Assembly: GCA_020724805.1 (NCBI GenBank)
Contig: DYGI01000001.1
Location: 303,157-367,156, forward strand
DNA from: Candidatus Microgenomatus sp.
GTDB taxonomy: Bacteria > Patescibacteriota > Minisyncoccia > UBA6257 > GWB1-50-10
Direction: 5' to 3'
Length of the DNA stretch: 64,000 nucleotides
The notes under the pieces are model-generated. The model was given only the letters and a program-made list of their open reading frames with translations, did not search any database and was not told where the DNA came from. The position numbers and the translations under genes are program-made. Within the stretch, counting starts at the first letter, position 1, and each line of letters begins with the position of its first letter. This document shows, piece after piece, positions 5,332 to 61,322 of the stretch.

Positions 5332-5338
5332 AGGTATA

Positions 5339-8974: not shown

Positions 8975-10439
8975 TTGGGAAATGCGGGCACACGACGTGT
9001 TTTTCCTTGGAGCTCTTTTCTTTCTTCTTGGGGTGCTTGCGGCGAGCATGGGGTTATCGATGTGGCCGTGGGTACTGGGCGGAATCGCGATGGCGCTTCT
9101 CGCGCGATGGCGGCATGGGCGGGGGTGGAAATTTACTCGCTGGAACCAAAACGGGTGGCTCATGGTAGCCGCTCTTTTGTTTTTTATGCCGGTGGGAGCA
9201 TTTTATTATACGGTTGACGATGCGCGTTTTACTCGTGTACCGCTCCCCGAGGGAGAGAAAACGTTCAATGCAGAAGTGGTTTCACTTCCCATCACGCGCG
9301 AAGGCGTTCAAGAACTCATTTTCCAAATTGAAAACCCCAAACTTCGTGTACTTGCGAAGCTCCCACCTTATCCGGCGTTTTCTTATGGAGCGCGCGTGAT
9401 GTTTTCTGGATCGATTGAGAAACCGCTTTCAGATTCATACCGAGAATATCTTGCGAAGGAGCGGGTGCGTGGCATAGTCGCATATCCGAATATCGTGGCA
9501 CATGAAGTGGGGACATTTTCGCTCCGTGGTGTGCTCTATGCGCTTCGCGAGGAAATCGTGGGCGCATTTCGCAATACGCTTCCCGCGAAAGAAGCGGCGC
9601 TCATGGCGGGCATTGCGGTTGGAGCGCGAGAAGATTTTTCGGAAGAATTTCGCAACGCGATGGCGGAGAGCGGTACCACCCATCTCGTCGCACTTTCGGG
9701 CTACAACATAATGGTGGTTGTTACGGTTGCCATGACGCTTTTTCTTACTTTCTTTTCGCGCCGCCTCGCGTTTTTTGCGACTTTAGGGGTAGTGTGCGCG
9801 TTCGTTCTTATGACCGGCGCGGAAGCTTCCGTGGTAAGAGCGGCGGTGATGGGAGGAGTGGCGCTCCTCGCGCGCTTTATGGGACAGCGCATGGACGTGC
9901 GGAACGCGATACTTTTCGCGGCGCTTATCATGGTGTTTGTGAACCCTAAAGTGCTTGTATTTGACTTAGGTTTCCAACTTTCCTTCCTTGCGCTTATCGG
10001 CATCGTATACCTAAAACCAGCATTTGATCGGATTCTTGGGTGGGAAAATAAAAGCGAAATTTTCTCGTGGCGCGAGAATCTCACCACGACCGCCGCGGCC
10101 CAATGTGCGGTTGCCCCACTCCTGATTCACACATTTGGGAGTGTGAGCATTTCTTCGCTTGCGGCCAATGTGCTGATTTTGGAGGTTGTTCCGCTTACCA
10201 TGGGACTTGGATTTATACTCGCGGCGCTTTCGTTCGTTTCAATATTTCTCGCACAGATAGTCGCGTTTTTTGCATTTATCTTCCTTAAATTTCAAACGTT
10301 CATGATAGAACTATTCGCGGCGCTTGCGTTTCCTATTGGCGCCGCGCTCTCTGCGCTCGCCGTGACGTGTTATTACGGCGTACTTGTGTTGGTGATATAT
10401 CTCGCCAAACAAAGAACAAATACACCACGGTATGCGTAA
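8967..10439 (+). CDS. comEC: ComEC/Rec2 competence protein, membrane channel part (DUF4131 plus competence domain)
   Basis: Polytopic membrane protein with ComEC-like topology and motifs; overlaps the next ORF by 8 nt. Confidence 0.7.
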   Translation: MYNWEMRAHDVFFLGALFFLLGVLAASMGLSMWPWVLGGIAMALLARWRHGRGWKFTRWNQNGWLMVAALLFFMPVGAFYYTVDDARFTRVPLPEGEKTFNAEVVSLPITREGVQELIFQIENPKLRVLAKLPPYPAFSYGARVMFSGSIEKPLSDSYREYLAKERVRGIVAYPNIVAHEVGTFSLRGVLYALREEIVGAFRNTLPAKEAALMAGIAVGAREDFSEEFRNAMAESGTTHLVALSGYNIMVVVTVAMTLFLTFFSRRLAFFATLGVVCAFVLMTGAEASVVRAAVMGGVALLARFMGQRMDVRNAILFAALIMVFVNPKVLVFDLGFQLSFLALIGIVYLKPAFDRILGWENKSEIFSWRENLTTTAAAQCAVAPLLIHTFGSVSISSLAANVLILEVVPLTMGLGFILAALSFVSIFLAQIVAFFAFIFLKFQTFMIELFAALAFPIGAALSALAVTCYYGVLVLVIYLAKQRTNTPRYA

Positions 10440-11289
10440 ACGTTTTATATTTCTTTTATTCGCGCTTCTCGCGGTTCTCAATGTATGGCTTTTCCGCGCG
10501 CTTGGCGCGGGTTCCTCATCCGATATCTCCGTGTCGTTTCTTGATGTAGGTCAGGGAGATGCGGCGCTCATTGCGCTTGAGAATGACGTACAAATTCTTA
10601 TCGACGGTGGTCCCCCAAACGGGAAACTTGTCGGAGAGCTTGGGGAAATGATGCCTGCGCACGATCGCACGATAGAGCTTGTTATTCTCACACATCCCGA
10701 ACTGGACCACTATGGCGGCTTTATTCCGCTCCTCGAGCGCTACGAAGTAAAAGTATTCGCCGATGCGGGAGTGAAGAAGGAAATCGAGGCGTACGAAATG
10801 CTTGAGCGGCTCATTGCGGAAAAAAATATTCGCCGCGTGGTTTTAAGAGAAGGAGATCGCATACGGTACGGTTCGCATATTTTTTCGATACTTTCTCCCG
10901 ACAATGCGCGTGCCGAATCGAACGCAAAAAACGATACTAGTATAGTGCTCACATTCGAAACGAATGGAGCGCGATTCCTTTTTACGGGGGATATCAGCGT
11001 TGATGTTGAACGAGCGCTCGTACCAGCGCTTACGGCGCCATACGATGTTTTGAAGGTTTCGCACCACGGTTCAAAGTTTTCATCCGCGGCCGAATTTCTC
11101 GCGGCGGTCCGGCCAACGCTTGCCACCATAGGAGTGGGGGAAAATTCATATGGCCATCCGACCTCCGAGGCGCTCTCGCGGCTCACATCGAGCGGTGCAC
11201 GCGTATATCGCACCGACCGTGATGGCACGGTCACGGTTCGCGTTGCGGACCGTGCGTTGCGGGTTTTTGCCGAACAAAAAGAGAGGTGA
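10432..11289 (+). CDS. MBL-fold metallo-hydrolase (ComEC C-terminal beta-lactamase-like domain encoded as a separate secreted/anchored protein)
   Basis: Own N-terminal signal/TM segment, then LDVGQGDAALI...HPELDHYGG...VSHHGS, typical of the ComEC MBL domain. Confidence 0.75.
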   Translation: MRKRFIFLLFALLAVLNVWLFRALGAGSSSDISVSFLDVGQGDAALIALENDVQILIDGGPPNGKLVGELGEMMPAHDRTIELVILTHPELDHYGGFIPLLERYEVKVFADAGVKKEIEAYEMLERLIAEKNIRRVVLREGDRIRYGSHIFSILSPDNARAESNAKNDTSIVLTFETNGARFLFTGDISVDVERALVPALTAPYDVLKVSHHGSKFSSAAEFLAAVRPTLATIGVGENSYGHPTSEALSRLTSSGARVYRTDRDGTVTVRVADRALRVFAEQKER

Positions 11290-34883: not shown

Positions 34884-35744
34884 TCATAAAATGGTGAATT
34901 TTCCTTTCGTTTCGCGCACGGCACCATCCAACGTGAGCTCGGTGAGTCGCGCAAGAACGATATTTGGTTCAAGTGTAGTGGCTTCCGCGATGGTGTCAAC
35001 GGAAAGCGGTTCTGTGGACGTCGCGAGCACCATGAGGATGGGGTCGTGGCTCGGAACGCGGGAAGTGGGCGTGTCCGCCATGACACGTGCGAGCACGGGG
35101 AGGTCTTCCATGAGGTCTGCCGCGTTCCTGATGAGGCGGGCTCCTTCGCGAATCAACATATGTGAGCCTTCGTAGTGAGGATGGCCAGCGGGGCCGGGAA
35201 GCACAAAGACCTCGCGTCCCTGGTCTGCCGCGTGGCGCGCGGTGGCCAAAGCGCCGGACGCAATGGGCGCTTCCACGATAACTACCCCGTCCGAAAGGCC
35301 AGAAATGATGCGATTTCTCTCAAGGAACTGATTCGGGTATGCGGGTGTGCCCGGAGGATATTCGGAAACGAGCGCACCGCGCTCTTCAATGCGACGTCCG
35401 AGGGATTCGTGCGAAGGAGGATAGATGGTGTCGATGCCACACCCAAGGACCGCAACGGTTTTTCCGTGCGCGTCCAAAGCTCCCTCGTGCGCTGCGGCGT
35501 CGATGCCGAGCGCGAGGCCAGAGACGATAACAATGCCGTGCCCCGCAAGGGTACGCGCAAGCATGCGCGCCATCTCGCGCCCTTCCCGGGTCGCTTTTCT
35601 GGTTCCTACTATGGCGATGGCAGGGATATGTTCGTGCGGGAGCGCGCCGCGTACAAAAAGTTGCGCCGGAGCGCCGGGAAGAGGCGCAAAACGCGCAGGA
35701 TACGAAGGATCTTTCCGTATGAGCGTGTGAATATGCGGCGCCAT
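34884..35744 (-). CDS. dprA: DNA processing protein A (Smf)
   Basis: Rossmann-like DprA core (GTRKATREG...GIDAAAH...GGTVAVLG); conserved smf-topA pairing. Confidence 0.8.
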   Translation of the reverse strand: MAPHIHTLIRKDPSYPARFAPLPGAPAQLFVRGALPHEHIPAIAIVGTRKATREGREMARMLARTLAGHGIVIVSGLALGIDAAAHEGALDAHGKTVAVLGCGIDTIYPPSHESLGRRIEERGALVSEYPPGTPAYPNQFLERNRIISGLSDGVVIVEAPIASGALATARHAADQGREVFVLPGPAGHPHYEGSHMLIREGARLIRNAADLMEDLPVLARVMADTPTSRVPSHDPILMVLATSTEPLSVDTIAEATTLEPNIVLARLTELTLDGAVRETKGKFTIL

Positions 35745-35763
35745 TCTATATAATGATAGTGTA

Positions 35764-36291
35764 ATGGACCCGTTCCGTAAAAAATTACTCCTTGAACTGG
35801 GGGTAGGAGGCGGTGTTATTGCGGTGCTTGCCGTGATGCTCATAATACTCGGCACCTACGTGGGGAATGTGAGCGAACGTATTGCATCCACGCGGACCGA
35901 TCTGCTCGAACGTTCCGCAACCGTCGGGTCGCTTGCCGCGCTCCAAGAATCATGGAAAAACAAAGCGGAAGGTTATTTGAACGTGCTCCGCAACGTGGTT
36001 CCGGAAAAGGACACGCTCATCAACGTTTCGCGCGATTTTCAATCGCTCGCAAGTCAAACCCGTACCGAATATTCCTTTGGATTCCTGGGAGAGACGGGGG
36101 AGTCGGAAGGGGGTATCGGGGCGCTTACATTCCGCCTTACCCTACGGGGAGACCTCGCAAATCTCTACGAATTCATTGAACGGTTCGCAGGGTTTCCGTT
36201 CCTTTCTACCATCGATAACTTCAATATTGCGCGAAAAGGCACGGAAACGGCGAGCGAACTTCTCGCGCAGGGGCGCATCTTTTTCCGATAA
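35764..36291 (+). CDS. PilO-like type IV pilus assembly protein (N-terminal TM helix)
   Basis: TM helix, coiled coil, C-terminal LTLRGDLANLYEFIERFAGFPFLSTIDNFNI resembling the PilO domain. Confidence 0.45.
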   Translation: MDPFRKKLLLELGVGGGVIAVLAVMLIILGTYVGNVSERIASTRTDLLERSATVGSLAALQESWKNKAEGYLNVLRNVVPEKDTLINVSRDFQSLASQTRTEYSFGFLGETGESEGGIGALTFRLTLRGDLANLYEFIERFAGFPFLSTIDNFNIARKGTETASELLAQGRIFFR

Positions 36292-51902: not shown

Positions 51903-52271
51903 ATGGCGAAATATGTTGATGGGTTTGTGATTCCCGTTCCGAAGGAGAACACGGCACAGTACAAGGCGATGGCGGCGGAGGGAAGCCGCGTGTGGAAGCG
52001 GTTCGGCGCCTTGGACTACAAGGAGTGTATTTTGAATGATGCCCGGCCGGACAAAAAGCTGAAGTTTACTTTCCCCAAAATGGCGAAGGTGAAGGCGGGG
52101 GAGACGGTATGGTTTTCGTTCATCGTCTACCGCTCGCGCGCGCACCGCGACGCGGTGAACAAGAAAGTGATGGCGTATTTCTCGAAGAAGTATAAGAAGA
52201 GTGATATGAAGATGCCGTTCGATATGAAGCGCTTTGCGTACGGCGGCTTCAAAGTGGTGGTGGAGCGATAA
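51903..52271 (+). CDS. DUF1428-like (YbaA-type) small protein
   Basis: N-terminal MAKYVDGFVIPVPK, characteristic of this family as I recall it. Confidence 0.5.
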   Translation: MAKYVDGFVIPVPKENTAQYKAMAAEGSRVWKRFGALDYKECILNDARPDKKLKFTFPKMAKVKAGETVWFSFIVYRSRAHRDAVNKKVMAYFSKKYKKSDMKMPFDMKRFAYGGFKVVVER

Positions 52272-52282
52272 ACAACAAAGTC

Positions 52283-52310
52283 CCGCCTCAAGGCGGGTTT
52301 TTGAGTGTGT
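52283..52310 (+). terminator. Rho-independent terminator
   Basis: cccgcct-caa-ggcggg followed by tttttg. Confidence 0.75.
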
Positions 52311-52322
52311 TAAGATTAGGAC

Positions 52323-53222
52323 ATGGTAAATAAGGTTTATTTTGGAGACAACCTTGCGCTGTTAAAATCGTTACCCACGAGATCGGTGCGGCTGATTTAT
52401 ATTGATCCGCCGTTCAACACCGGAAAAGTACAGAAACGGAAACAGCTCAAGACGATCCGCGCGGCCGACGGAGATCGTGTAGGTTTTAAAGGGCAACGTT
52501 ATCAAACGACCGTAGTGGGGGAAAAGGGATACGCTGATGTTTTCGATGACTATCTCGGCTTTCTTGAGCCACGACTCCGAGAAACTCGTCGTGTGCTCAC
52601 CGATGATGGGAGTTTGTATTTTCACATCGATTATCGGGAAGTGCATTATTGTAAGATTCTACTTGATCAGATATTTGGCCGCGAATCGTTTTTGAACGAG
52701 ATCATATGGGCGTATGACTACGGCGCACGCACAAAAAAGAAATGGCCCGCAAAACATGACAATATCTTGTGGTATGCGAAGGATCCGGAACGTTACATCT
52801 TCAACTACGAGGAAATTGAACGAATACCTTACATGGCGCCCGGGCTCGTGGGTCCCGAGAAAGCTAAACGGGGGAAAACGCCTACCGATACGTGGTGGAA
52901 CACCATCGTGAGTCCGAACGGAAAGGAAAAAACCGGATACCCTACACAGAAACCGCTCAGTATTATACGACGCATTGTTCTAGCGTCGTCGAATCCCGGC
53001 GATATGGTGATGGACTTTTTTGCTGGAAGCGGAACTCTTGGCGAGGCCGCGCTTGAACTCGGAAGAAATTTTATTTTAGCAGACAGCAATCCCGAAGCGA
53101 TCGAAGTAATGAAGAAACGATTACTCAAGTATCCTAATGTGGCATTTGAAACGTTAGAGAAAGATGCAGATGCCCAACCTTTGAAGCTTGTTTCGGAACA
53201 AAAAGTTCACACTTTACTGTGA
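52323..53222 (+). CDS. Site-specific DNA methyltransferase (N6-adenine/N4-cytosine class)
   Basis: Catalytic DPPF (IYIDPPFNTG) and an AdoMet-binding motif; lower GC than the flanking DNA. Confidence 0.85.
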   Translation: MVNKVYFGDNLALLKSLPTRSVRLIYIDPPFNTGKVQKRKQLKTIRAADGDRVGFKGQRYQTTVVGEKGYADVFDDYLGFLEPRLRETRRVLTDDGSLYFHIDYREVHYCKILLDQIFGRESFLNEIIWAYDYGARTKKKWPAKHDNILWYAKDPERYIFNYEEIERIPYMAPGLVGPEKAKRGKTPTDTWWNTIVSPNGKEKTGYPTQKPLSIIRRIVLASSNPGDMVMDFFAGSGTLGEAALELGRNFILADSNPEAIEVMKKRLLKYPNVAFETLEKDADAQPLKLVSEQKVHTLL

Positions 53223-53755
53223 AGCGTAAGGTTACCAATCACGATGTTGGAATGCTTGCGAGCATCGCGCAGAGCCTCCGCGCTGACTATGTGAGCAATG
53301 ATGCGGCATGGGAAGGCAGCCCATTTGCATGGATTAGAACGCGTCCATCACGTCAGAAAGGCAAGATTGGGGAACAGCTCGTTGCCGGATGGTGCGCAGC
53401 AAAAAGTTTGAACGTGGAACGAAGCCCTGATAGTGACGCAGATCGTGTTATTGAGGGGAAAAGAGTTGAGATAAAACTTTCAACGCTTTGGGAAAGTGGA
53501 ATTTATAAATTTCAACAGCTCCGTGATCAGAATTATGAATACCTTATTTGTCTCGGTATCTCTCCTTTTGATGCGCGCGCCTGGGTTTTCAAGAAGAGCG
53601 AAATACCATTTGATCGCTTAGACCATCAACATGGAGGATCACGCGGAAGAGATACTTGGTGGATAGAAGCAGATCCAAATCGCCCTCCAAGGTGGATGAT
53701 GCGTGATCAGCGCGGGAAATTATCCGATGTGTATCGAATTTTGAAAAGCAGATAG
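53219..53755 (+). CDS. Putative type II restriction endonuclease (PD-(D/E)xK fold), translationally coupled to the MTase
   Basis: 4-nt overlap with the MTase gene; motif SDADRVIEGKRVEIK (D...E-x-K). Confidence 0.5.
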   Translation: MKRKVTNHDVGMLASIAQSLRADYVSNDAAWEGSPFAWIRTRPSRQKGKIGEQLVAGWCAAKSLNVERSPDSDADRVIEGKRVEIKLSTLWESGIYKFQQLRDQNYEYLICLGISPFDARAWVFKKSEIPFDRLDHQHGGSRGRDTWWIEADPNRPPRWMMRDQRGKLSDVYRILKSR

Positions 53756-53870
53756 CATGGCTCGTTGAAGGTTTTCCGGAATCACGGTATAATAAGAAAA
53801 AAGTAGGGGACCAGCGTCCCGACCTGAAAGCCGTTTGACTTCCATGCCGGGCCAACCCGGATTTTTAATT

Positions 53871-54215
53871 ATGGATCAGGAACTGCAGAAGAAAATTCTA
53901 GAGGTTATAAAAAAGAACGGCGGCCAAGCTTCCGTTGGATATTTGGGTGTAGCAGTTGGTTCGAAAGTTTTGTCTGGCGAAAAGACCGGAATAGATAAGT
54001 GGAAACATAATCTACATCTCTTAATCGACTCTAATAAAATCAAAGAAATCGGAGAAGGTTTACGACCCACTTCATCGGTGAGAATTACCGAGGAGGGAGA
54101 AAGTTTTCTTAAGGGTGAGAGTAATGATGGGGATATTCTAAAGCTGTCTCCGGAGTTTTATGGTGTCGGAATAAACCTCAAATCTCTTTGGAGAAAGATT
54201 AAGTCATGGTTCTAG
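53871..54215 (+). CDS. Hypothetical protein, possibly winged-helix
   Basis: LQKKILEVIKKNGGQASVGYLGVAVGS resembles a wHTH. Confidence 0.4.
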   Translation: MDQELQKKILEVIKKNGGQASVGYLGVAVGSKVLSGEKTGIDKWKHNLHLLIDSNKIKEIGEGLRPTSSVRITEEGESFLKGESNDGDILKLSPEFYGVGINLKSLWRKIKSWF

Positions 54216-54279
54216 CTTCCCATCTAAAGTAGTTCTCAGAACTATGAACACCTACGCCGAAGCGATGTTAATTTAAGTT

Positions 54280-54591
54280 ATGGATTACAAAAGCAAAACA
54301 GATGAGGAAATAGTGGAAATTGCAAAAGAGGGAATTATACGATCACCGCAGGGCGCGCAAGCCGAAATGATGCGTCGGCTTAAAGATTCTATCGTGAAAT
54401 TAGATATCAGCACCTCTCGTTATAACCGCATGTTAGTGAGACTAACCTATTTTCTTTTAGTTATAGCAATTTTTCAGTTGTGGTATTACGCATTCGATGG
54501 GCGTCTCAATTCATTGACAGCGCTCGCCGGCTTACTAGCGATCCTTCCAATTCTTATTGTTTATAGACGAGAAATTGCTCGCTTGAAATAA
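54280..54591 (+). CDS. Hypothetical small membrane protein (two C-terminal TM helices)
   Basis: Preceded by a conserved 35-nt upstream element shared with the gene at 54632. Confidence 0.45.
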   Translation: MDYKSKTDEEIVEIAKEGIIRSPQGAQAEMMRRLKDSIVKLDISTSRYNRMLVRLTYFLLVIAIFQLWYYAFDGRLNSLTALAGLLAILPILIVYRREIARLK

Positions 54592-54631
54592 AAAATGACC
54601 ACCTACACCGGATCGATGTTTAAATAAATCT

Positions 54632-54991
54632 ATGGCCTGGCACCATTATTTTAAAAAGTTTTACAGAAAGAAGATTGGTCAGACGCCTCACTCCCGACGC
54701 CTATGGGCCGCTCTTAAAGAGCGTGGAATAGATTCCGAAACCGAGTATTTCGATGGTCACAAGCATGTTGATATCGCCATTCGTAGTGCTCGTATCTATA
54801 TTGAGGTAGATGGTATCCAGCATTTTACTAACCCAGAGCAAATCATGAGAGATTTCAAGCGGAGCCATTATTCTGATGGTGACGACTTTAGCACTTTCTA
54901 CGTAACCAACCAGATCATTGAAACGCACTTGAACGAAGTTGCAGACGCTATCGCTAAAGTTGTGGAAATGAAACTTAACCCCTCCCCATGA
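54632..54991 (+). CDS. DUF559-family (Vsr/MutH-like endonuclease fold) protein
   Basis: HVDIAIRSARIYIEVDGIQHFTNPEQIMRD...GDDFSTFYVTNQI matches the DUF559 pattern (VDF...IELDGxQH...PEQ...D). Confidence 0.6.
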   Translation: MAWHHYFKKFYRKKIGQTPHSRRLWAALKERGIDSETEYFDGHKHVDIAIRSARIYIEVDGIQHFTNPEQIMRDFKRSHYSDGDDFSTFYVTNQIIETHLNEVADAIAKVVEMKLNPSP

Positions 54992-55033
54992 CCCTCCAAA
55001 ATCTTTCATTACTCGTAATGGCCATCGCGGTGG
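54983..55033. repeat. 51-nt perfect direct repeat, copy 1 (covers the start of the gene at 54988)
   Basis: TCCCCATGACCCTCCAAAATCTTTCATTACTCGTAATGGCCATCGCGGTGG, identical to 56821..56871. Confidence 0.95.
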
Positions 55034-55740
55034 CGATATTGATTTTCGCGGCCGTGGGGCTCTACCCCGGGAGCTTTATGGTGCTACGGATAGTGACTTT
55101 CCTCGCGGCCGCGGCGTTTGCAAACCTTGCGTACCGGAGCAAGCAAATCCCGTGGCTATGCGTATTTGTGGCAATAGCGGTGGTGTTTAACCCGTTTATT
55201 CCTTTTGCCCTGAACGACGCGACCCTATGGCGCGTGATAGACGCGGCGGTGGTGCTCATTTTCGGATTTTTCTTCTGGCGCTACTACGACCGGTACGGCA
55301 AGGGGCATCGGTTCGAGGAATATGTGGCCGCGCTTTTTCCCGCGCACCACTGGGTGGTGGTGGACCGGACGCGGGATTTTTCAAAAACACTCGGGCGGTT
55401 TGTGGAGTCGGACACCAATCCCGACTTTATGTTTCGCGACGTGAAGACCGGAAAATCGTTTGCGGTGGAGTGCAAGTTCAGATCGTATCTCTACAAAGGC
55501 GGCATTTCGTGGGATAGGCAGAGAGGGGAACGGTACCATGCGTATGGCGTGAAGCACAGCGTGCCGGTGTTCATCGCAATCGGGCTTGGTGGGAGCCCCA
55601 AGAAGCCCGAGCGGCTGTTTATGTGCCCTTTGGAAAAACTGAACAACTTTGCGAACCCCGTGGTGCCGATGGAGGAGTTTGTCCGCTACGAGCGCGACCC
55701 GAAAAGGCAGTTCGTTTCGATTGAGGAGATTATAGGATAG
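54988..55740 (+). CDS. Membrane-anchored PD-(D/E)xK nuclease-fold protein (3-4 TM helices plus a C-terminal nuclease-like domain)
   Basis: C-terminal NPDFMFRDVKTGKSFAVECKFRS (PD...ExK); paralogous to the gene at 56342. Confidence 0.55.
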   Translation: MTLQNLSLLVMAIAVAILIFAAVGLYPGSFMVLRIVTFLAAAAFANLAYRSKQIPWLCVFVAIAVVFNPFIPFALNDATLWRVIDAAVVLIFGFFFWRYYDRYGKGHRFEEYVAALFPAHHWVVVDRTRDFSKTLGRFVESDTNPDFMFRDVKTGKSFAVECKFRSYLYKGGISWDRQRGERYHAYGVKHSVPVFIAIGLGGSPKKPERLFMCPLEKLNNFANPVVPMEEFVRYERDPKRQFVSIEEIIG

Positions 55741-55779
55741 CTTCCCACTGACCTACCCCAATTGGGGTAGAATGGAGAT

Positions 55780-56313
55780 ATGAAAATAGCGGTAGGGACC
55801 GTTTCGGAACAAAAAATAGGATATCTACGTGAAATTCTCGCAGAGGTCGGCGTTTCCGCTGAAACTTTTCCAGTTGGTGTATCAAGCGAAATAGCGGAAC
55901 AGCCGTTCACCTCGGATGAGGTAAAGCGGGGTTCGTTGAATCGAGCCCGCCACGCACTGGAAAAAGTTCCCGATGCCGACATATCAATTGGCATCGAGGT
56001 GGGATATGAAAAGGATAAAAACGGGAGTTTTTGGATGTTTTGTTGGGGGACAGCGATCGATAAGGCGGGATTCATAATTTCACACAAATCAAATGAGTTT
56101 CTCCTCCCCGCGTTTTTTCAAAGCGTCCTTCAAGATGGACGATACGTTTCTGATTCTGTGGCTGAATATAAGAGGCAGCAGTCAGACACCGCGGGGCATG
56201 TAATCGCGGACATCGTAACTTACCGCAAGCCCTTCATTGTGGACGCGGTACGAAACGTATTGCTTCGCTACGTAAAGCGTGAGGAATTTGAAAGAAAGCA
56301 TCCTTTCCTATGA
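55780..56313 (+). CDS. YjjX-family non-canonical purine NTP phosphatase (inosine/xanthosine triphosphatase, Maf/Ham1 superfamily)
   Basis: SEIAEQPFTSDEVKRGSLNRARHAL...ISIGIEVG aligns with E. coli YjjX ([26 protein letters not shown]...FWVAIEAG). Confidence 0.75.
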   Translation: MKIAVGTVSEQKIGYLREILAEVGVSAETFPVGVSSEIAEQPFTSDEVKRGSLNRARHALEKVPDADISIGIEVGYEKDKNGSFWMFCWGTAIDKAGFIISHKSNEFLLPAFFQSVLQDGRYVSDSVAEYKRQQSDTAGHVIADIVTYRKPFIVDAVRNVLLRYVKREEFERKHPFL

Positions 56314-56341
56314 GCTCAGCAAATTAGGGTAGAATAGAGGT

Positions 56342-56818
56342 ATGAAAAACCCCATCGACTTCTCGCGAGGGCTTATAAAAGGAAAAATTGCGGAGGTTAT
56401 TTTCGAGCAAATGTTCCGCGAGTCGGGCGAGTTTACTATTCTCCATTTTGGATACGAATATACATCGCAAGAATTGGCCCAATATCGGAAAACCCTTAAA
56501 AAAGAGGTTGTGGAAGATATAAGTAACGCACCTGACTTCGCACTTATTTCACAATCGAAGAAAGAATTGTATTTAGTTGAAGTGAAGTATCGCTCGCAGT
56601 ACAACAGGGATGATTTGAAAGAAATTGCCAGAACTCAACTTAAGCGATGGGACCCATCATGGCTTTTTGTGGCATCTCCAAAAGGATTTTTCTTTTCGCC
56701 TTGTAGCTCAATTGTAAAAAGTGGGGGAGAAATGGAACCTTTGCGCGACACGTGGGTAAATAAAGAATCGCAAAAGGAGTATCTGAAACTACTGAACGAG
56801 TTCATAAAACAGAAATAA
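56342..56818 (+). CDS. Soluble PD-(D/E)xK nuclease-fold protein
   Basis: APDFALISQSKKELYLVEVKYRS (PD...EVK); paralogous to the C-terminal domain of the gene at 54988. Confidence 0.55.
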   Translation: MKNPIDFSRGLIKGKIAEVIFEQMFRESGEFTILHFGYEYTSQELAQYRKTLKKEVVEDISNAPDFALISQSKKELYLVEVKYRSQYNRDDLKEIARTQLKRWDPSWLFVASPKGFFFSPCSSIVKSGGEMEPLRDTWVNKESQKEYLKLLNEFIKQK

Positions 56819-56820
56819 AC

Positions 56821-56871
56821 TCCCCATGACCCTCCAAAATCTTTCATTACTCGTAATGGCCATCGCGGTGG
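56821..56871. repeat. 51-nt perfect direct repeat, copy 2 (encodes a truncated 26-aa duplicate of the N-terminus of the gene at 54988)
   Basis: Exact copy of 54983..55033; the ORF ATGACCCTCC... terminates after 26 codons at 56906. Confidence 0.95.
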
Positions 56872-56892
56872 AAAAGAAACGGCCATCAGTTT

Positions 56893-57147
56893 CTATTGAA
56901 TTCTGATGGCCGCGAGAATGAAGATAATGAGAACGATGAGGGCGACGCCGAAGGGGATAGGATTCTGTGCGATGAAGTGACCAAGCGAGCGGCCCATCCA
57001 TCGTACAAATGTGGCGAGTTGTCGCCCCGTCCACCCTCGGAAGCGATTCGCCTGCGCGGGGCTCACCATATAGATAATCGCGTAGCACGTGAGCCACATC
57101 CCCGTGAGCAGCGCTACCCACTGCATGGAATATTCGAAAAGAGTCAT
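56893..57147 (-). CDS. Hypothetical small membrane protein (84 aa, two TM helices)
   Basis: Divergent from the gene at 57318; a palindromic operator-like site lies between them. Confidence 0.4.
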   Translation of the reverse strand: MTLFEYSMQWVALLTGMWLTCYAIIYMVSPAQANRFRGWTGRQLATFVRWMGRSLGHFIAQNPIPFGVALIVLIIFILAAIRIQ

Positions 57148-57214
57148 AAGGTCCTCTTTTTGGTTTTGAAAGATCGGCGACGCACAACCTATCGTGAATT
57201 GTGTGGATGCATTA

Positions 57215-57231
57215 TAGCATATTATATGCTA
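57215..57231. promoter_or_regulatory. Perfect 17-bp palindrome TAGCATATTATATGCTA in a divergent intergenic region
   Basis: Arms tagcatat/atatgcta; located between the minus-strand gene at 56893..57147 and the plus-strand gene at 57318. Confidence 0.45.
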
Positions 57232-57317
57232 ATATGTCAATATGTGTATATTTAGCGTGGTATCAGTTCTCAGTCAATGCACTTCCAATGTTTGTGGGAT
57301 AAAATGGAGGTGTGAGC

Positions 57318-58073
57318 ATGGAAATGTCCAACACGATGGAGCTTAGACCAGAGAAGGAATCGCTCGGTCCGGAATTCCTCGCCGAGCAGGCCCGGCTTCC
57401 GCGCGAGGAATGGGACGAGCGTTTTCGTATACTCGTCGCGAAGAAGAGCGAGGAAAATCAAAAGGTGATTGCGGAGGGGGTGGAAGAAGGTCCGGAGTCG
57501 CCGGAGGAGCGCGTGTTCCGCCGCTATTGCGACGGGCTTGGGCTCGACGAAGAATCGCTCCACGGAAAGCGCATCGTGGACTTTGGGTGCGGCGAGGAAG
57601 GGGAATTCGTAAAATATTGCATTGAGCACGGAATCACCACGGAAGTCTACGGTGTGGACGCGCAGGTGGACGAGTCTTTGGTGGAAGAGAAATTCAAAAA
57701 ACACCTCGTGAAAGGATATTTTGAAGATGAAGCGCCGGTACGCGATGCGGATTACGTGATTTCCGTGGGGGCGGTATCAAATGAGATATGGGGAGGCGAA
57801 ACGCAGGGGGATATTGAGAAAATACTCGCGCGTGCCGTGGACGCACTGAAAGACGGCGGAGAGATAAGAATGTACCCGATACAGGAAGCCGCCCGCGCGA
57901 CCCCGCTGGAAGGGCTTGCGGCATCACGGGAAAGATGGAAAGAGATACTGGACGCATTTGCCGCGGACCACGGCGTGGAATATCGGCTGGAACCGCGCGA
58001 TATCAAAGTGGCAGGAAACGACAACGACATCATCCTTGAATCGGTGCTTGTGATGAAAAGGAAACATAAATAG
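57318..58073 (+). CDS. Class I SAM-dependent methyltransferase-like protein
   Basis: Motif I IVDFGCGEEG; post-I acidic VYGVD; DYVIS. ATG 57318 is preferred because RBS ggagg sits 7 nt upstream. Confidence 0.55.
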   Translation: MEMSNTMELRPEKESLGPEFLAEQARLPREEWDERFRILVAKKSEENQKVIAEGVEEGPESPEERVFRRYCDGLGLDEESLHGKRIVDFGCGEEGEFVKYCIEHGITTEVYGVDAQVDESLVEEKFKKHLVKGYFEDEAPVRDADYVISVGAVSNEIWGGETQGDIEKILARAVDALKDGGEIRMYPIQEAARATPLEGLAASRERWKEILDAFAADHGVEYRLEPRDIKVAGNDNDIILESVLVMKRKHK

Positions 58074-58123
58074 CTCCTCCCACTGACCCCCGACAGCAGT
58101 AAACAGCTAGACGGGCAGGCTGA

Positions 58124-58165
58124 AACAAAAAGCCGCTCACGCTGTACGAACAACGTGAGCGGTAT
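58124..58165 (-). terminator. Rho-independent terminator (minus strand)
   Basis: ccgctcacg-ctgtacgaacaa-cgtgagcgg preceded on the plus strand by aaacaaaaa. Confidence 0.6.
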
Positions 58166-58182
58166 ACTTATGTGCCGGCGGT

Positions 58183-58404
58183 TCAGGCGGGAGTTGGGGT
58201 GAAATTGGGCGGACCGGAGCAGTTGTCTCCCAGCGCCCTCATGGACTTCTCTTCCCGTCGCCGGCGAATGATGGATTCAATGTCGCTCCCTTTTGCGCAC
58301 ACGAACCCCGCACCTCCCTCCAACGCGAGGAAACTGCAGGTTTCGGATCCTTTTCCCCGCTTGCAGAGCGTTTGCATGCGTGCTTCATCGACCTTGGTGG
58401 CCAT
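58183..58404 (-). CDS. Hypothetical small Cys-containing protein (73 aa)
   Basis: RBS aagggagg 5 nt upstream of the ATG; dedicated terminator downstream. Confidence 0.45.
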   Translation of the reverse strand: MATKVDEARMQTLCKRGKGSETCSFLALEGGAGFVCAKGSDIESIIRRRREEKSMRALGDNCSGPPNFTPTPA

Positions 58405-58470
58405 AGTACCTCCCTTTGCTGGTGAGCGAATACTGACGCCACCTTACCACCGCTCCGCCCCGGGAGTCAA

Positions 58471-58500
58471 TTGACAAATACCACCAATCGGTGGTATTTT
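58471..58500 (+). promoter_or_regulatory. Sigma-70-like promoter TTGACA-18-TATTTT with a 20-bp perfect palindrome (ATACCACCAATCGGTGGTAT) in the spacer
   Basis: TTGACA at 58471-58476, palindrome at 58478-58497, -10 at 58495-58500; a second palindrome gtcaattgac overlaps the -35. Confidence 0.5.
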
Positions 58501-58546
58501 GTTTTCAGCCCTAATTAACTTATTTTCCATTAAAACGGAGGTTTGT

Positions 58547-58912
58547 ATGAACCGCAAAGAATCCATCGGTGAGCGTATTCGCTCCCTTTGGTTTGATGTC
58601 CAACTGCTCATGCTCATCGGCTACATGTTGATCGGCGGGTTCCAGACAATTCGATGGGCCGGTCAGATCGGTGTGAAAGAGCCGCAAACCGCCGCAATCA
58701 CCATCGGGCCGGAAACGGGCCTGGGGCAAGCAATGCCCTTCAGCGACCTTTCACCGGGTACGTACCGCGTGATCGCGCAAGCCGACGACTACACGACCAT
58801 CCTCGCGGCGGTTGTGCCGACGGGGGACATCCCGCTCCTCGTTCGGGACGTGCCCAAGCACCTTCTCAAGAAAGGCACTTTCCGGTATGGGACGTTCCTT
58901 GATTCCGTTTGA
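58547..58912 (+). CDS. Hypothetical protein with an N-terminal TM helix (121 aa)
   Basis: RBS aaacggagg; terminator at 58924..58966. Confidence 0.5.
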   Translation: MNRKESIGERIRSLWFDVQLLMLIGYMLIGGFQTIRWAGQIGVKEPQTAAITIGPETGLGQAMPFSDLSPGTYRVIAQADDYTTILAAVVPTGDIPLLVRDVPKHLLKKGTFRYGTFLDSV

Positions 58913-58923
58913 CGCTTTGCATC

Positions 58924-58966
58924 CGGCGGGTGACGCATTTTCATGCGCCACCCGTTTTTTGTTGGT
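58924..58966 (+). terminator. Rho-independent terminator
   Basis: ggcgggtgacgcat-tttc-atgcgccacccg followed by tttttt. Confidence 0.7.
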
Positions 58967-58984
58967 TTGAAGTAGAATTGATTT

Positions 58985-59431
58985 ATGCAAGGTAATCGAA
59001 CGAAAACGCTCCTCGCGCGGGTGAAAGAGCTGCGGCTGCCCACGGAGCAGTACGTTATTTTCGGGAGCGGACCCATGGTGGTGCGGGGATTACGCGAGTG
59101 CAAGGATATCGACATACTCGTTTCCGAAAGTGTTTTTCGAGAATACAGGGATAAGCCCGGATGGACGACGAAAAAATTCGGTGACGGCTCGGATTATCTG
59201 GAAAACGACGGCATCGAACTTTGGGCCGAATGGGGGCCGGGGGAGTGGAACGAAGCAGCGCTTATTCGCGAAGTGGAAATAATAGACGGGTTGCCGTTCG
59301 TTCCGTTGGAAATGATGCTCAAGTGGAAGAAAATCTGTGGCCGCCCGAAAGACCTCGCGGACGTAAAGACGGTGGAGGAATACCTGAAACGAAATAACCT
59401 CTTCGAGCTCGTCGAGACTGAGTCTTTCTGA
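58985..59431 (+). CDS. Minimal nucleotidyltransferase (Pol-beta-like NTase fold) protein
   Basis: IFGSGPMVVRGLRECKDIDILV matches the hG[GS]x9-13 Dh[DE]h NTase signature. Confidence 0.55.
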   Translation: MQGNRTKTLLARVKELRLPTEQYVIFGSGPMVVRGLRECKDIDILVSESVFREYRDKPGWTTKKFGDGSDYLENDGIELWAEWGPGEWNEAALIREVEIIDGLPFVPLEMMLKWKKICGRPKDLADVKTVEEYLKRNNLFELVETESF

Positions 59432-59506
59432 GACGAATGTCCTGAAGGCTCCTCAGAGCCTGAACGGCCCTCCCACTGATCCGACCGTATAAACAAACGC
59501 CGCTTG

Positions 59507-59686
59507 CTATGAAGCGGCGCCTTCGATGATGCGGGGCTCCTCCATGCCGGGAGCGCAATAATAGAGATGGTCCATCGCGATGCGGGTTTCGGGAATCCAG
59601 AGGCGATGGCAACGCGGACAACGCGTTGGAATTTTCATAAGGTCCCTACCTACGCATTCCGGGCATTGCTCGGGCGTGTCAGACAT
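59507..59686 (-). CDS. Small zinc-ribbon protein (59 aa)
   Basis: RBS aaggaga 5 nt upstream of the ATG; CPEC...CPRC; terminator hairpin plus a T-run downstream. Confidence 0.45.
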   Translation of the reverse strand: MSDTPEQCPECVGRDLMKIPTRCPRCHRLWIPETRIAMDHLYYCAPGMEEPRIIEGAAS

Positions 59687-59839
59687 GGCTATCTCCTTAA
59701 TGGTGGCCTATCAAAAACATGCTATTTTCCCTATTAAAAGTCAATTATCTGAGCCTATAATTTGCCTTCCCTTGGCCTTTCTGTTATTACTGCATTTAGA
59801 GCGTTTTTGACATCATCCAATAACGAAAGGAGTAAGGAT

Positions 59840-60625
59840 ATGAAAACCACACATGCGGTAGAAAGAAACGCGGAAACCCGTATTTCCGCAGATGTTCTCC
59901 CGCTCAGCCATCTTGAATCGGTGGCGCTGGGATTTCTTGCATTGGCAGCAGGAGCCAGCTTCTTCAAGGAGTGGCTCACCGAGCGCCTATCCGAACGCAC
60001 GCTCGCTTTGCCGGACATCATCGAGATTCCCGCATTCGAGCCCGCGCACATCGAATGGATCCCTCCGATCAGCCCTGCAGTAGCCGAGAGGAAGCTCATT
60101 TGGCTGCTGAACGAGATGGAGTATGCTCCGGAGCGTCAGCGGCAGAGGGTCATCAATATCCTGAACCTGTCACATCAGACTCCCATACCGAAGGCCGCTG
60201 CGTGGGGTATCGTCTTTAACGAGACGCTGGGGGTATTCGTCGCGGGTCACCCATTCAGATTCAACACGCTTGTGGACTACTCACAGACTGTAATTGTGGG
60301 TCCCGAGTGGACTCGGTTGAAATCGCACGAGCTCACCAAGTGTGTAAGCAGGGTGAGCCTGATGGCGACGGCGAAGTGTATCGAACACGCCAGCTTCAAG
60401 CTGGAGCGGCTCGAGCCCGAAGTCAGCTCCTGGCTTCTTGAGGGATCAGGTGTGCGGCTGTATGGCGCCGAAAGCGGGCAAAGCTTCAACGATGTTCTGG
60501 CCCGTGTCCGCGAATCCGGTCTGCCGTACGCTTTTCTCTCCGAAAAGGTGGATATGCTGGCACTGCAGCCCTGCATTACCGGCAGTTACGAAACTCTTCT
60601 CGCCGAACTGACCCCAGTCGAGTGA
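59840..60625 (+). CDS. Hypothetical protein (261 aa)
   Basis: RBS aaaggag 7 nt upstream of the ATG; no recognisable motif. Confidence 0.5.
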   Translation: MKTTHAVERNAETRISADVLPLSHLESVALGFLALAAGASFFKEWLTERLSERTLALPDIIEIPAFEPAHIEWIPPISPAVAERKLIWLLNEMEYAPERQRQRVINILNLSHQTPIPKAAAWGIVFNETLGVFVAGHPFRFNTLVDYSQTVIVGPEWTRLKSHELTKCVSRVSLMATAKCIEHASFKLERLEPEVSSWLLEGSGVRLYGAESGQSFNDVLARVRESGLPYAFLSEKVDMLALQPCITGSYETLLAELTPVE

Positions 60626-60701
60626 GTCGAGAAGTGGGAATTTCCGGGTGGTGTACTTTGGTACCCCACCCGTTTTTGTTTAGTTGAGGTAAAATAGAAT
60701 C

Positions 60702-61322
60702 ATGAATAACAATACGATTGTGGTGGGGGCGGTAGGGCTTGTGGTGGGTGCATTGCTCGGGATGTATGCAGTGCCGGCGGTGGTGCCGGAGACCTACGCG
60801 CCGCGGGGCGGGTGGGGGATGATGGGCGGTGGAATGATGGGTGCAAACTTGGACCAGCACTTCATCGCGCAGATGATACCGCACCATGACGACGCGATTG
60901 CGATGGCGGAGCTTGCGCTCGAGCGCGCGACAAAGCCCGAGATACGCACGCTTGCGGAGAACATTATCGCGGCGCAGACGCGCGAGAATGGGGAGATGCG
61001 CATGTGGTACCGCGCGTGGTTCGGCGGCGAGGTGCCGGACGTATTCCTCGCGATGGGGCACGGGATGGATCCGAGGATAACAATCGACGGGATGATGATG
61101 TATATGACCGACGTCGCACGCCTCGAGACCGCGAATCCCTTTGAGCAGGCATTTATTGAGGAGATGATTCCGCACCACGAGATGGCCGTGATGATGGCGC
61201 AGATGTTGAAAGCCGGTTCGGCGCGCCCCGAGATGCAGAAACTTGCGGATGATATCATTGCCGCACAGACCGACGAGATCAATCAGATGCGCGCGTGGTA
61301 CCGCACTTGGTACGGAAACTAG
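60702..61322 (+). CDS. DUF305-domain protein (four-helix-bundle metal-binding family), secreted/anchored
   Basis: Two repeats of the MIPHH(D/E)xA(I/V)xMA motif; N-terminal TM helix. Confidence 0.7.
   Translation: MNNNTIVVGAVGLVVGALLGMYAVPAVVPETYAPRGGWGMMGGGMMGANLDQHFIAQMIPHHDDAIAMAELALERATKPEIRTLAENIIAAQTRENGEMRMWYRAWFGGEVPDVFLAMGHGMDPRITIDGMMMYMTDVARLETANPFEQAFIEEMIPHHEMAVMMAQMLKAGSARPEMQKLADDIIAAQTDEINQMRAWYRTWYGN

What the first reader, a model, noticed from the sequence alone, without database searches (positions are those of the whole stretch)
54213..59482. Recurring stop-codon-adjacent motif TAG-CT(Y)CCCACTGAYC at the 3' ends of island genes
TCCCACTGACC occurs 3 and 5 nt after the TAG stops of the genes ending at 55740 and 58073 (TAGCTTCCCACTGACC and TAGCTCCTCCCACTGACC). 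TCCCACTGATCC occurs 40 nt after the stop of the gene ending at 59431. The gene ending at 54215 is followed by TAGCTTCCCAtcta, sharing the first 10 nt. A specific 11-mer is expected far less than once in 64 kb, and the similarity begins exactly at the stop codon rather than in the coding sequence. Together with the conserved 5' modules this looks like cassette boundaries, for example recombination sites analogous to integron attC or phage-like module junctions. No integrase is present in the window.
Basis: seen in the sequence. Interest (0 to 1): 0.55.

Follow-up and report, generated by a model that had tools for sequence, protein, structure and literature searches.

The report
Repeated junction scar between island genes
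A 13-base sequence that recurs just after three genes in a variable gene island of a tiny uncultured bacterium (Candidatus Jorgensenbacteria) is real, but it is most likely a leftover of an old gene-to-gene junction copied around by recombination, not an integron-like recombination site.

Summary
C[CT]TCCCACTGA[CT]C occurs at 55741, 58076 and 59469, always on the + strand, always non-coding, and nowhere else in 64 kb. A matched test does give significance, with 0 of 300 simulations for the 13-mer.

The window is a Candidatus Jorgensenbacteria (CPR) contig. The motif lies in a hypervariable island that holds a type II restriction-modification system, small nucleases and orphan genes. Five related loci carry completely different genes there.

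Junctions in all of these loci carry short duplicated pieces that start at the stop codon of the preceding gene. Four families are demonstrably the 5' ends of neighbouring or lost genes. One is a perfect 52-bp copy of the DUF6804 gene start at 56820-56871.

The motif is a close variant of one such junction, TAACCCCTCCCCATGACCC. That junction precedes DUF6804 in the window and follows a different gene in the closest relative. Homology with that relative breaks exactly at these elements.

I found no hairpin, no dyad symmetry, no attC signature and no recombinase. ComEC and DprA are present.

Best reading: these are module-junction relics or short homology patches left by recombination. A true cassette-exchange site is not excluded.

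The parts
55741..55753 (+). Motif copy 1, CTTCCCACTGACC. It starts directly after the TAG of the DUF6804 gene (54988-55740). A palindrome TACCCCAATTGGGGTA and the promoter-like GGGTAGAAT of the NTPase gene follow it.
58076..58105 (+). Motif copy 2, CCTCCCACTGACC, plus an extension (CCCGACAGCAGTAAACA) shared with copy 3. It starts 2 nt after the TAG of the SAM-methyltransferase gene (57318-58073). It is the first sequence of the block 58074-60689, which is absent from relative L063.
59469..59495 (+). Motif copy 3, CCTCCCACTGATC, plus the extension CGACCGTATAAACA. It lies 38 nt after the TGA of the 148-aa gene (58985-59431), between convergent genes.
54976..54994 (+). Junction element TAACCCCTCCCCATGACCC. 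It forms the last codons and TGA of the DUF559 gene and the ATG of the DUF6804 gene. It is 19/19 identical to L063 486-504, where it follows the stop of the TnsA-like gene. It differs from the motif centre by 2 mismatches (CCTCCCCATGACC).
54982..55033 (+). Left copy of a perfect 52-bp direct repeat: 6 nt upstream plus the first 46 nt of the intact DUF6804 gene.
56820..56871 (+). Right copy of the 52-bp repeat. It is a 5' stub of the DUF6804 gene placed 1 nt after the TAA of the TnsA-like gene. It begins with CTCCCCATGACCC. Homology with L063 ends at 56832.
56303..56315 (+). Weak look-alike CTTTCCTATGAGC. It contains the TGA stop of the NTPase gene. It aligns without gaps with copy 1 through the following promoter (76% over 46 nt).
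   Evidence: family D3
54213..54222 (+). Weak look-alike TAGCTTCCCA after the 114-aa gene. It shares only 10 nt with copy 1, four of which (TAGC) are a genome-wide stop context.
54244..54276 (+). Ten-codon 5' stub (MNTYAEAMLI*) of a gene family that is intact in L064 7156-7620 and absent from the window. It ends 3 nt before the ATG of gene 54280-54591.
54595..54627 (+). Second stub of the same family (MTTYTGSMFK*). It ends 4 nt before the ATG of the DUF559 gene.
52323..60689 (.). Variable island. It holds a type II R-M pair (52323-53755), small low-GC orphan genes, DUF559, DUF6804, NTPase_I-T, a TnsA-like gene, a methyltransferase and further orphan genes. GC fluctuates between 41 and 54%.

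Best explanation
The motif is a relic of a gene-to-gene junction (stop codon, a C-rich 9-nt spacer, then a start codon: TAA-CCCCTCCCC-ATG-ACC). Recombination has copied it to several module boundaries inside a hypervariable accessory and defence island of a Candidatus Jorgensenbacteria genome.

Shown:
- Modules of one to three genes are exchanged in this island between relatives.
- Each exchange tends to leave behind a short duplicate of the sequence that lay next to the module. That duplicate is typically the spacer plus the first codons of the following gene.
- As a result, stubs and junction elements start exactly at the stop codon of whatever gene now precedes them.

Inferred:
- The three TCCCACTGAYC copies descend from one decayed copy of this junction (ATG changed to CTG) that was then duplicated within the island.
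- The process is homologous or homology-facilitated illegitimate recombination of DNA taken up by natural transformation, or Campbell-type insertion and excision of small circles through such short repeats.
- Selection keeps only recombinants whose joints fall between genes.
- The motif has no biochemical function of its own. At most it serves as a micro-homology patch for the next exchange.
For: 1. The motif is real but confined to the island. There are 3 copies in 3.7 kb and 0 in the other ~64 kb.

2. It is a near copy of a junction found in other contexts.
- CCTCCCACTGACCCCCG (site 2) matches CCTCCCCATGACCCCCG in L063 at 15/17.
- Counted by eye from the stop codon, the match is 18/22.
- TAACCCCTCCCCATGACCC is 19/19 identical between window 54976-54994, where it precedes DUF6804, and L063 486-504, where it follows the TnsA-like gene.

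3. Four independent families of 5' gene stubs sit directly after stop codons in this lineage (contexts).
- The DUF6804 start: 52 bp, 100% identical, at 56820.
- The MTTYAE family: window 54244 and 54595.
- The 130-aa MPYHGAIIEES gene: L009 10762, 11701 and 17301.
- The RibD_C start: L064 8169, 10772 and 11503.

4. L010 has its own 43-nt repeat that starts at the stops of two different genes.

5. Neighbours of the same gene differ completely among relatives. They include type I R-M, AbiEii, GmrSD, HEPN and Fic. Homology with L063 breaks at the junction elements.

6. There is no structure, no symmetry, no attC signature and no recombinase.

7. ComEC (8967-11289) and DprA (34884-35855) are encoded in the window.
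Against: - Descent of TCCCACTGACC from CCCCATGACC rests on 13-22 nt of similarity. The variant at 54981 alone is near chance level, with about 1.4 hits at two or fewer mismatches expected per window.
- Thirteen bases are too short for RecA-dependent exchange, so the copies must be remnants of longer repeats or products of micro-homology joining. Neither was observed directly.
- All strong copies share one orientation and a conserved CCTCCC core. Relatives also carry that core (CTCCCRCGGCG: five copies in L009 and two in L011, at least two of these seven lying inside coding sequence, against none in 51 unrelated loci). That would also fit a functional site.
- Only five related loci were available, and the remaining ~500 kb of the genome could not be scanned.
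Confidence: 0.5

Rival explanations
1. The motif is a genuine recombination site of a cassette-exchange system. A recombinase or nuclease encoded elsewhere in the genome, or one of the island's own small nucleases (DUF559, the DUF6804 C-terminal domain, the TnsA-like protein), cuts or joins at the C-rich element. That element starts with a stop codon, so each gene plus its downstream element behaves like a cassette.
For: - All copies have the same orientation and lie at or just after stop codons.
- Homology with L063 ends exactly at the right edge of CTCCCCATGACCC (56832) and at the left edge of site 2.
- The same element is joined to different left flanks (TnsA-like, methyltransferase, DUF6804, DUF559) and different right flanks.
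- Related CCTCCC-core elements are repeated in relatives and absent from unrelated loci.
Against: - No recombinase domain was found in the 64 kb or in the gene lists of five related loci.
- The motif has no dyad symmetry, hairpin or attC signature.
- The sequence right of CCTCCC differs between genomes (TGACC versus CGGCGCC).
- Other junctions in the same islands carry unrelated stubs of ordinary genes. A site-specific system does not predict that.
- The TnsA-like protein is a widespread single-copy CPR family rather than an island-specific enzyme.
Confidence: 0.15
2. The motif is a cis-acting RNA or DNA signal at the 3' ends of transcripts. It could be a C-rich, G-poor Rho-loading or RNA-stability element, or an anti-Shine-Dalgarno-like CCUCCC that modulates translation of neighbouring genes.
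For: - The motif is C-rich and predicted to be unstructured.
- It lies downstream of stop codons and, at sites 2 and 3, upstream of hairpins in convergent intergenic regions.
- CCTCCC is the sequence of the 16S anti-SD (general knowledge).
Against: - None of the other ~60 gene ends in the window has it.
- Distance to the stop varies from 0-2 to 38 nt.
- Rho sites are not sequence-specific at the 13-nt level.
- Rfam finds nothing.
- The element at 54976 overlaps a start codon instead of following a terminal gene.
Confidence: 0.12
3. The recurrence is coincidence helped by composition. The contributing factors would be a genome-wide TAG-C stop context and C-rich intergenic sequence.
For: - Repeated k-mers are common in the window.
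- The 11-mer version reaches significance in only about 90% of simulations (31 of 300 simulations match it).
- TAGC is a general stop context.
Against: - The 13-mer family was matched in 0 of 300 simulations.
- Sites 2 and 3 share about 30 nt (z = 5.2).
- A near-identical element sits at an equivalent junction in L063.
Confidence: 0.06

Closest known systems
Integron gene cassettes and attC sites (including CALIN arrays that lack an integrase)
   Same: It is a co-oriented array of short elements. Each begins at or just after the stop codon of the preceding ORF. The elements separate genes whose content varies between relatives, and there is no integrase nearby, as in CALINs.
   Different: - There is no RYYYAAC...GTTRRRY signature and no imperfect palindrome or bulged hairpin.
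- The element is 13-30 nt long rather than 57-141 nt.
- Many modules carry their own promoters and some contain genes on the opposite strand.
- Other junctions carry gene stubs instead of a common site.
Mosaic module boundaries of phage genomes (short conserved boundary sequences between exchangeable gene modules; general knowledge)
   Same: Short conserved sequences lie precisely at gene borders and flank interchangeable, unrelated genes. Joints lie at gene boundaries because other recombinants are lost.
   Different: The island is chromosomal, lies in a CPR bacterium, and has no phage genes. Viral-contig scans for three island proteins found nothing.
Scars of homology-facilitated illegitimate recombination, or Campbell-type insertion through short homology, after natural transformation (general knowledge)
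   Same: Inserted DNA is flanked by direct duplications of recipient sequence, such as the 52-bp repeat and the 5' stubs. The uptake and processing genes ComEC and DprA are present.
   Different: The process was not observed. Stubs recur at 5' ends of genes far more regularly than random illegitimate joints would predict without strong selection.
Direct repeats from tandem integration at tRNA genes (attL/attR remnants)
   Same: Short co-oriented direct repeats bound successive island segments.
   Different: - There is no tRNA or tmRNA in or next to the island.
- The motif does not match the 3' end of any of the three tRNAs in the window.
- There is no integrase.
REP/BIME-type intergenic repeats, uptake sequences and intrinsic terminators
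   Same: They are short intergenic repeats downstream of genes.
   Different: The motif is not palindromic, is not followed by a T-run, and is confined to one island instead of being spread over the genome.

Membership tests
Integron / attC cassette array | An IntI-type tyrosine recombinase with an adjacent attI and Pc (not required for CALIN). | tested here: not met
   No Phage_integrase or other recombinase domain was found among window ORFs scanned with Pfam, or in the precomputed Pfam lists.
Integron / attC cassette array | attC: R'' (RYYYAAC) and R' (GTTRRRY) boxes 50-140 nt apart, with complementary L''/L' arms. | tested here: not met
   There are 0 such pairs on either strand of 52000-61000. 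Shuffles give 1.75 pairs on average.
Integron / attC cassette array | The single-stranded site folds into an imperfect hairpin. | tested here: not met
   The motif is unpaired in the minimum-energy and centroid DNA folds of all sites on both strands. z-scores range from -0.6 to -2.0.
Integron / attC cassette array | Co-oriented sites lie immediately 3' of each ORF, and gene content is variable between sites. | tested here: met
   All copies are on the + strand at or after stop codons. Gene content differs in L009, L010, L011, L063 and L064.
Xer/dif-like or other tyrosine/serine recombinase core site | Two inverted binding arms around a short central region (dyad symmetry). | tested here: not met
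   No inverted repeat of 6 nt or more lies within 40 nt around sites 2, 3 and A. The palindrome next to site 1 does not include the motif.
tRNA-gene att remnants | The repeat is identical to the 3' (or 5') end of a tRNA or tmRNA gene that flanks the island. | tested here: not met
   The window holds only three tRNAs (13.6 kb and 36.6 kb) and none lies in the island. The only resemblance is a 1-mismatch 9-mer to the D-loop on the opposite strand. tRNAs elsewhere in the genome could not be tested.
REP / terminator / uptake-sequence type repeats | Many copies are spread over the genome, usually palindromic or followed by a T-run. | tested here: not met
   There are 0 copies outside the island in about 64 kb. 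The motif is not palindromic and has no T-run. The remaining ~500 kb was not scanned.
Recombination scars / 5' gene stubs at module junctions | The repeat is a copy of the sequence adjoining another gene (spacer plus first codons), and it coincides with homology breakpoints between relatives. | tested here: inconclusive
   This is met for four other repeat families and for CTCCCCATGACCC at 56820. For TCCCACTGAYC itself it rests only on 15/17 to 18/22 similarity to that junction. No intact source gene was found.
Known RNA families (Rfam) | A match to a curated covariance model. | tested here: not met
   No hit in the island at E up to 5 apart from two chance-level matches. No hits at gathering threshold in L009-L011.

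The most novel reading that the evidence does not exclude
Jorgensenbacteria, and perhaps other CPR bacteria, may run an integrase-free cassette-exchange mechanism. Short C-rich junction elements that carry a stop codon at their left edge and a start codon at their right edge would act as portable recombination and translational-coupling sites. Genes taken up by natural transformation would then be slotted in and expressed between resident genes. The 5' stubs and the TCCCACTGAYC copies would be its footprints.
Probability: 0.12. Interest if true: 0.7.

Novelty: new member of a known kind. Interest (0 to 1): 0.3.

Why it matters
If the reading is right, the motif is not a new genetic element. 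It is a useful marker. It shows that a small, host-dependent CPR genome keeps one locus in rapid flux, swapping restriction-modification, toxin and nuclease genes. It also shows that exchanges leave recognisable stubs that begin at stop codons. Those footprints could be used to map module boundaries and reconstruct the order of insertions in CPR defence islands, where no integrases or transposases are evident. If the less likely site-specific reading were true, it would be a first cassette system for this large uncultured radiation.

Tried and rejected
- tRNA, tmRNA and Rfam searches of the window, the island (permissive) and relatives found nothing at the motif.
- The tRNA-like idea was rejected. 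The reverse complement GGTCAGTGGGAGG resembles a D-arm, but there is no tRNA fold and ARAGORN is negative.
- A coding explanation was rejected. The motif is in different frames relative to the upstream stops, and the minus-strand frames hit stops.
- A role as a -35 element for the downstream GGGTAGAAT promoter was rejected. The spacing is 14 nt, and sites 2 and 3 have no downstream promoter.
- Hairpin and attC tests were negative.
- Pairing or similarity with the nearby candidate small RNA was not found (z below 1.1).
- The genome-contig scan with the DUF305 protein returned only relatives at about 50% identity from other phyla. It was useless for synteny, although those 51 loci served as a negative control.
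- The metagenome scan with the 148-aa protein gave 3 distant short contigs.
- Viral scans for the NTPase, the TnsA-like protein and the 148-aa protein were negative.
- Closer homologues of the TnsA-like protein (L068, L070) come from AT-rich organisms that lack the motif.
- A whole-collection scan for the motif itself was not attempted. A 13-14-mer would give thousands of chance matches.
- One look-up failed because the ORF start differs from the recorded gene call.
- The 1,846-bp contig L073 spans the unit between the 52-bp repeats. Its ends overlap by only 8 nt, which fits an assembly break at a repeat. It is not evidence for a circle.


Full report
**Source and setting**

The window is identical to part of JGI metagenome contig 3300029893 Ga0246236_1000004 (570,864 bp) and to NCBI GCA_020725245.1. 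Its nearest named relatives are Candidatus Jorgensenbacteria, a lineage of the Candidate Phyla Radiation (CPR).

Most of the window is core genome. It holds DnaG, sigma-70, the ribosomal protein cluster, SecY and TopA. From about 52.3 to 60.7 kb the GC content drops and fluctuates between 41 and 54%. The genes there are:
- a type II restriction-modification pair at 52323-53755;
- several small orphan genes;
- a DUF559 nuclease-like gene;
- a DUF6804 protein;
- an NTPase_I-T protein;
- a small TnsA-like protein;
- a SAM-methyltransferase ("MTase" below; 57318-58073) and more orphan genes.

**The observation**

TCCCACTGA occurs exactly three times, at 55743, 58078 and 59471. All copies are on the + strand and all are non-coding. 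There is no other copy on either strand of the 64 kb, nor in the 4 kb beyond the window contained in locus L004. Extended by two bases to the left, the copies read CTTCCCACTGACC, CCTCCCACTGACC and CCTCCCACTGATC.

**Is it more than chance?**

In this window 62 exact 11-mers occur three or more times, and 116 9-mers have three copies within 4 kb.

I therefore asked how often non-coding positions of a simulated window contain any family of three copies, each within one mismatch of a centre, within 4 kb. The answer was 31 of 300 simulations for 11-mers and 0 of 300 for 13-mers. In the real window only this motif and the terminator tail GGGGTTTTTGT qualify. Sites 2 and 3 also share about 30 nt: CCTCCCACTGA(CC)YCCGACMGYA(G)TAAACA (z = 5.2).

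The recurrence is real. The fourth site at 54213 is weak. TAG is followed by C in 11 of 16 long ORFs, so 'TAGC' carries little information.

**Weaker relatives of the motif in the window**

Allowing two mismatches to CCTCCCACTGACC adds one hit, CCTCCCCATGACC at 54981. Allowing three adds ACTCCCCATGACC at 56819. Both are on the + strand and at gene junctions. The eight other hits at three mismatches are scattered, seven of them on the other strand.

These two hits are the starts of a perfect 52-bp direct repeat, 54982-55033 = 56820-56871. The left copy is the 6 nt upstream plus the first 46 nt of the intact DUF6804 gene. The right copy is a stub of that gene placed one base after the TAA of the TnsA-like gene.

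**Relatives**

Homologues of the DUF6804 protein (79-86% identity) and of the methyltransferase (71-88%) led to five related loci: L009, L010, L011, L063 and L064. Around the shared genes the neighbours are entirely different. They include type I R-M, AbiEii, GmrSD, HEPN, Fic/MazE, PIF1 helicase, BsaWI-type R-M and RibD_C. Only a few backbone genes recur: DUF305, NUDIX, HIT and TspO. This is a hot spot of gene turnover.

L063 is the closest relative (87-94% nucleotide identity) and lets the junctions be read directly:
- Homology runs through the TnsA-like gene and ends at window 56832, the last base of CTCCCCATGACCC.
- Homology resumes inside the methyltransferase and ends at its stop codon.
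- In L063 a RibD_C gene follows. In the window, 58074-60689 follows instead. This block begins with motif copy 2 and contains copy 3.

Gene swaps therefore do occur at these elements.

**What the junction sequences are**

A BLAST of every gene start (-20 to +200) against all six loci shows four independent families of short 5' gene fragments lying outside genes, directly after the stop of the preceding gene:
- the DUF6804 start (window 56820, 52 nt; L063 486-504, 19 nt);
- an MTTYAE... family that is intact only in L064 7156-7620, with 10-codon stubs at window 54244-54276 and 54595-54627 and another in L009;
- the 130-aa gene of L009 (MPYHGAIIEES...), with fragments at L009 10762, 11701 and 17301;
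- the RibD_C start, which is intact after the methyltransferase in L063 and present as three fragments in L064 after three different genes.

L010 has a further 43-nt repeat that starts at the stop codons of its DUF6804 and NUDIX genes. A terminator hairpin (window 58130-58163) is 94% identical to one attached to an unrelated gene in L010.

**Relation of the motif to these junctions**

TAACCCCTCCCCATGACCC is 19/19 identical between window 54976-54994 and L063 486-504. In the window it forms the end of DUF559 and the start of DUF6804. In L063 it follows the TnsA-like stop and is followed by unrelated sequence. A similar string follows the DUF6804 stop in L011 (16/20).

Motif copy 2 matches the L063 element at 15 of 17 positions, CCTCCC(AC/CA)TGACCCCCG (z = 4.8, 0 of 100 shuffles). 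Counted by eye from the stop codon, the match is 18 of 22. The motif differs from the junction essentially by CCATG becoming CACTG, which removes the start codon.

L009 and L011 carry another relative, CTCCCRCGGCG, with five and two copies, at least two of these seven lying inside coding sequence. It is absent from 51 unrelated loci. In two of the L009 copies it continues into the stub of the 130-aa gene.

I conclude that TCCCACTGAYC belongs to this class of junction relics. This is a moderate-confidence conclusion because it rests on short alignments.

**Tests of the integron-like reading**

- No recombinase domain is found in the window, by Pfam scans or by the precomputed annotations covering most ORFs. 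None appears in the gene lists of the five related loci.
- The island has no RYYYAAC...GTTRRRY pair (0 observed, 1.75 expected).
- The motif has no dyad symmetry and is unpaired in every predicted fold on both strands.
- Rfam finds nothing.
- Many modules have their own promoters, and some contain minus-strand genes.

What does agree with a cassette array is the co-orientation, the position at stop codons and the coincidence with breakpoints.

**Mechanism proposed**

Shown:
- the island turns over by module exchange;
- junctions carry duplicates of adjoining sequence;
- ComEC (8967-11289) and DprA (34884-35855) are encoded. Competence has been proposed as a route of gene gain in Patescibacteria (PMC12455944).

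Inferred:
- Incoming or excised DNA is inserted by recombination through short shared sequences. This could be Campbell-type insertion through a patch such as the 52-bp repeat, or homology on one side and micro-homology on the other.
- That insertion duplicates the patch.
- Selection retains only joints at gene borders.
- Later deletions trim the duplicates to stubs of 13-50 nt.
- The three motif copies would be descendants of one such trimmed, start-less stub.

**Limits**

- The rest of the genome could not be scanned.
- Only five related loci exist in the searchable collections.
- Exact breakpoints within the 13-19-nt elements cannot distinguish site-specific from micro-homology joining.
- A site-specific or nuclease-driven system (15%) and a cis-regulatory role for the C-rich element (12%) remain possible.

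**Verdict**

This is a real but probably passive sequence feature: a junction scar in a hypervariable island of a CPR genome. The attC analogy and the strength of the statistics were wrong.

Noticed in passing
window 53765-53866; L009 8618-8699; L064 5011-5069: Candidate small RNA. It has a sigma-70-like promoter (TTGAAG-17-TATAAT, 53765-53793). The core CGTCCCGACCTGAAAGCCGTTTGAYTTCCA is 87-88% conserved in three genomes next to different genes. It is followed by a terminator hairpin whose sequence differs but stays paired (3 pairs with compensatory changes). There is no Rfam match and no similarity or complementarity to the motif.
   Followed up: partly
window 54982-55033 and 56820-56871: A perfect 52-bp direct repeat brackets an 1,838-bp unit (DUF6804, NTPase_I-T and TnsA-like genes). 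Public assemblies of the same population break inside it (L006 and L008 start at 56842; L073 spans 55004-56849). This could mark a recent insertion or an excisable unit.
   Followed up: yes
window, all TAG stop codons: TAG is followed by C in 11 of 16 ORFs of 100 aa or more. TAA is mostly followed by A (15 of 31), and TGA shows no preference. This is a marked stop-codon context bias of unknown cause.
   Followed up: partly
window 55765, 56327, 62456 (also 29766, 42997, 62905); L009, L063: (G)GGTAGAAT lies 4-8 nt before a short GAG/GGAG and the ATG. It recurs on the coding strand upstream of many genes in this lineage. It appears to be a compact promoter with near-leaderless spacing.
   Followed up: partly
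window 58130-58163 vs L010 5491-5524: The same terminator hairpin (94% over 34 nt) follows unrelated genes in two genomes: the 73-aa gene here and a 120-aa gene in L010. Intergenic signals are shared while the genes differ.
   Followed up: partly
window 8967-11289 and 34884-35855: ComEC (Competence plus metallo-beta-lactamase domains, called as two overlapping ORFs) and DprA are present. A VirD4/TrwB-like ATPase lies at 5285-7234. Together these form a DNA-uptake toolkit in a very small genome.
   Followed up: no
window 56028 and 60851: Contigs of sample 3300029892 end and start at exactly 56028, inside the NTPase gene where GC drops. Two assemblies end at 60851. This possibly reflects strain-level structural variants at these points.
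   Followed up: no
window 56342-56818: The 158-aa protein has a weak TnsA-like N-terminal match. It belongs to a large family (332 clusters at about 55-65% identity) found on long CPR contigs. It is probably a conserved CPR protein rather than a transposon gene.
   Followed up: partly
L009 450-490, 2716-2813, 3029-3083, 4016-4058, 4644-4767; L064 1222-1290; window 59402-59437: Relatives carry a separate family of 30-55-nt intergenic repeats (…CCTGAGTATCCCCGAAG…GAGTTTGAGCGAAGCCCGTTGGGGGAGT…) around Peptidase_C39-like genes. A 36-nt piece (89% identical) matches the 3' end of the window's 148-aa gene.
   Followed up: no
L009 11751-11791, 12841-12881, 13180-13220, 19993-20033; L010 5969-5990; L011 5790-5810, 6110-6130; L064 8570-8595: A palindromic operator-like sequence, AATTCG(C/T)ACGAAT(T), recurs next to ArsR/HTH_5 genes and at other junctions in relatives. 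It was not looked for in the window.
   Followed up: no
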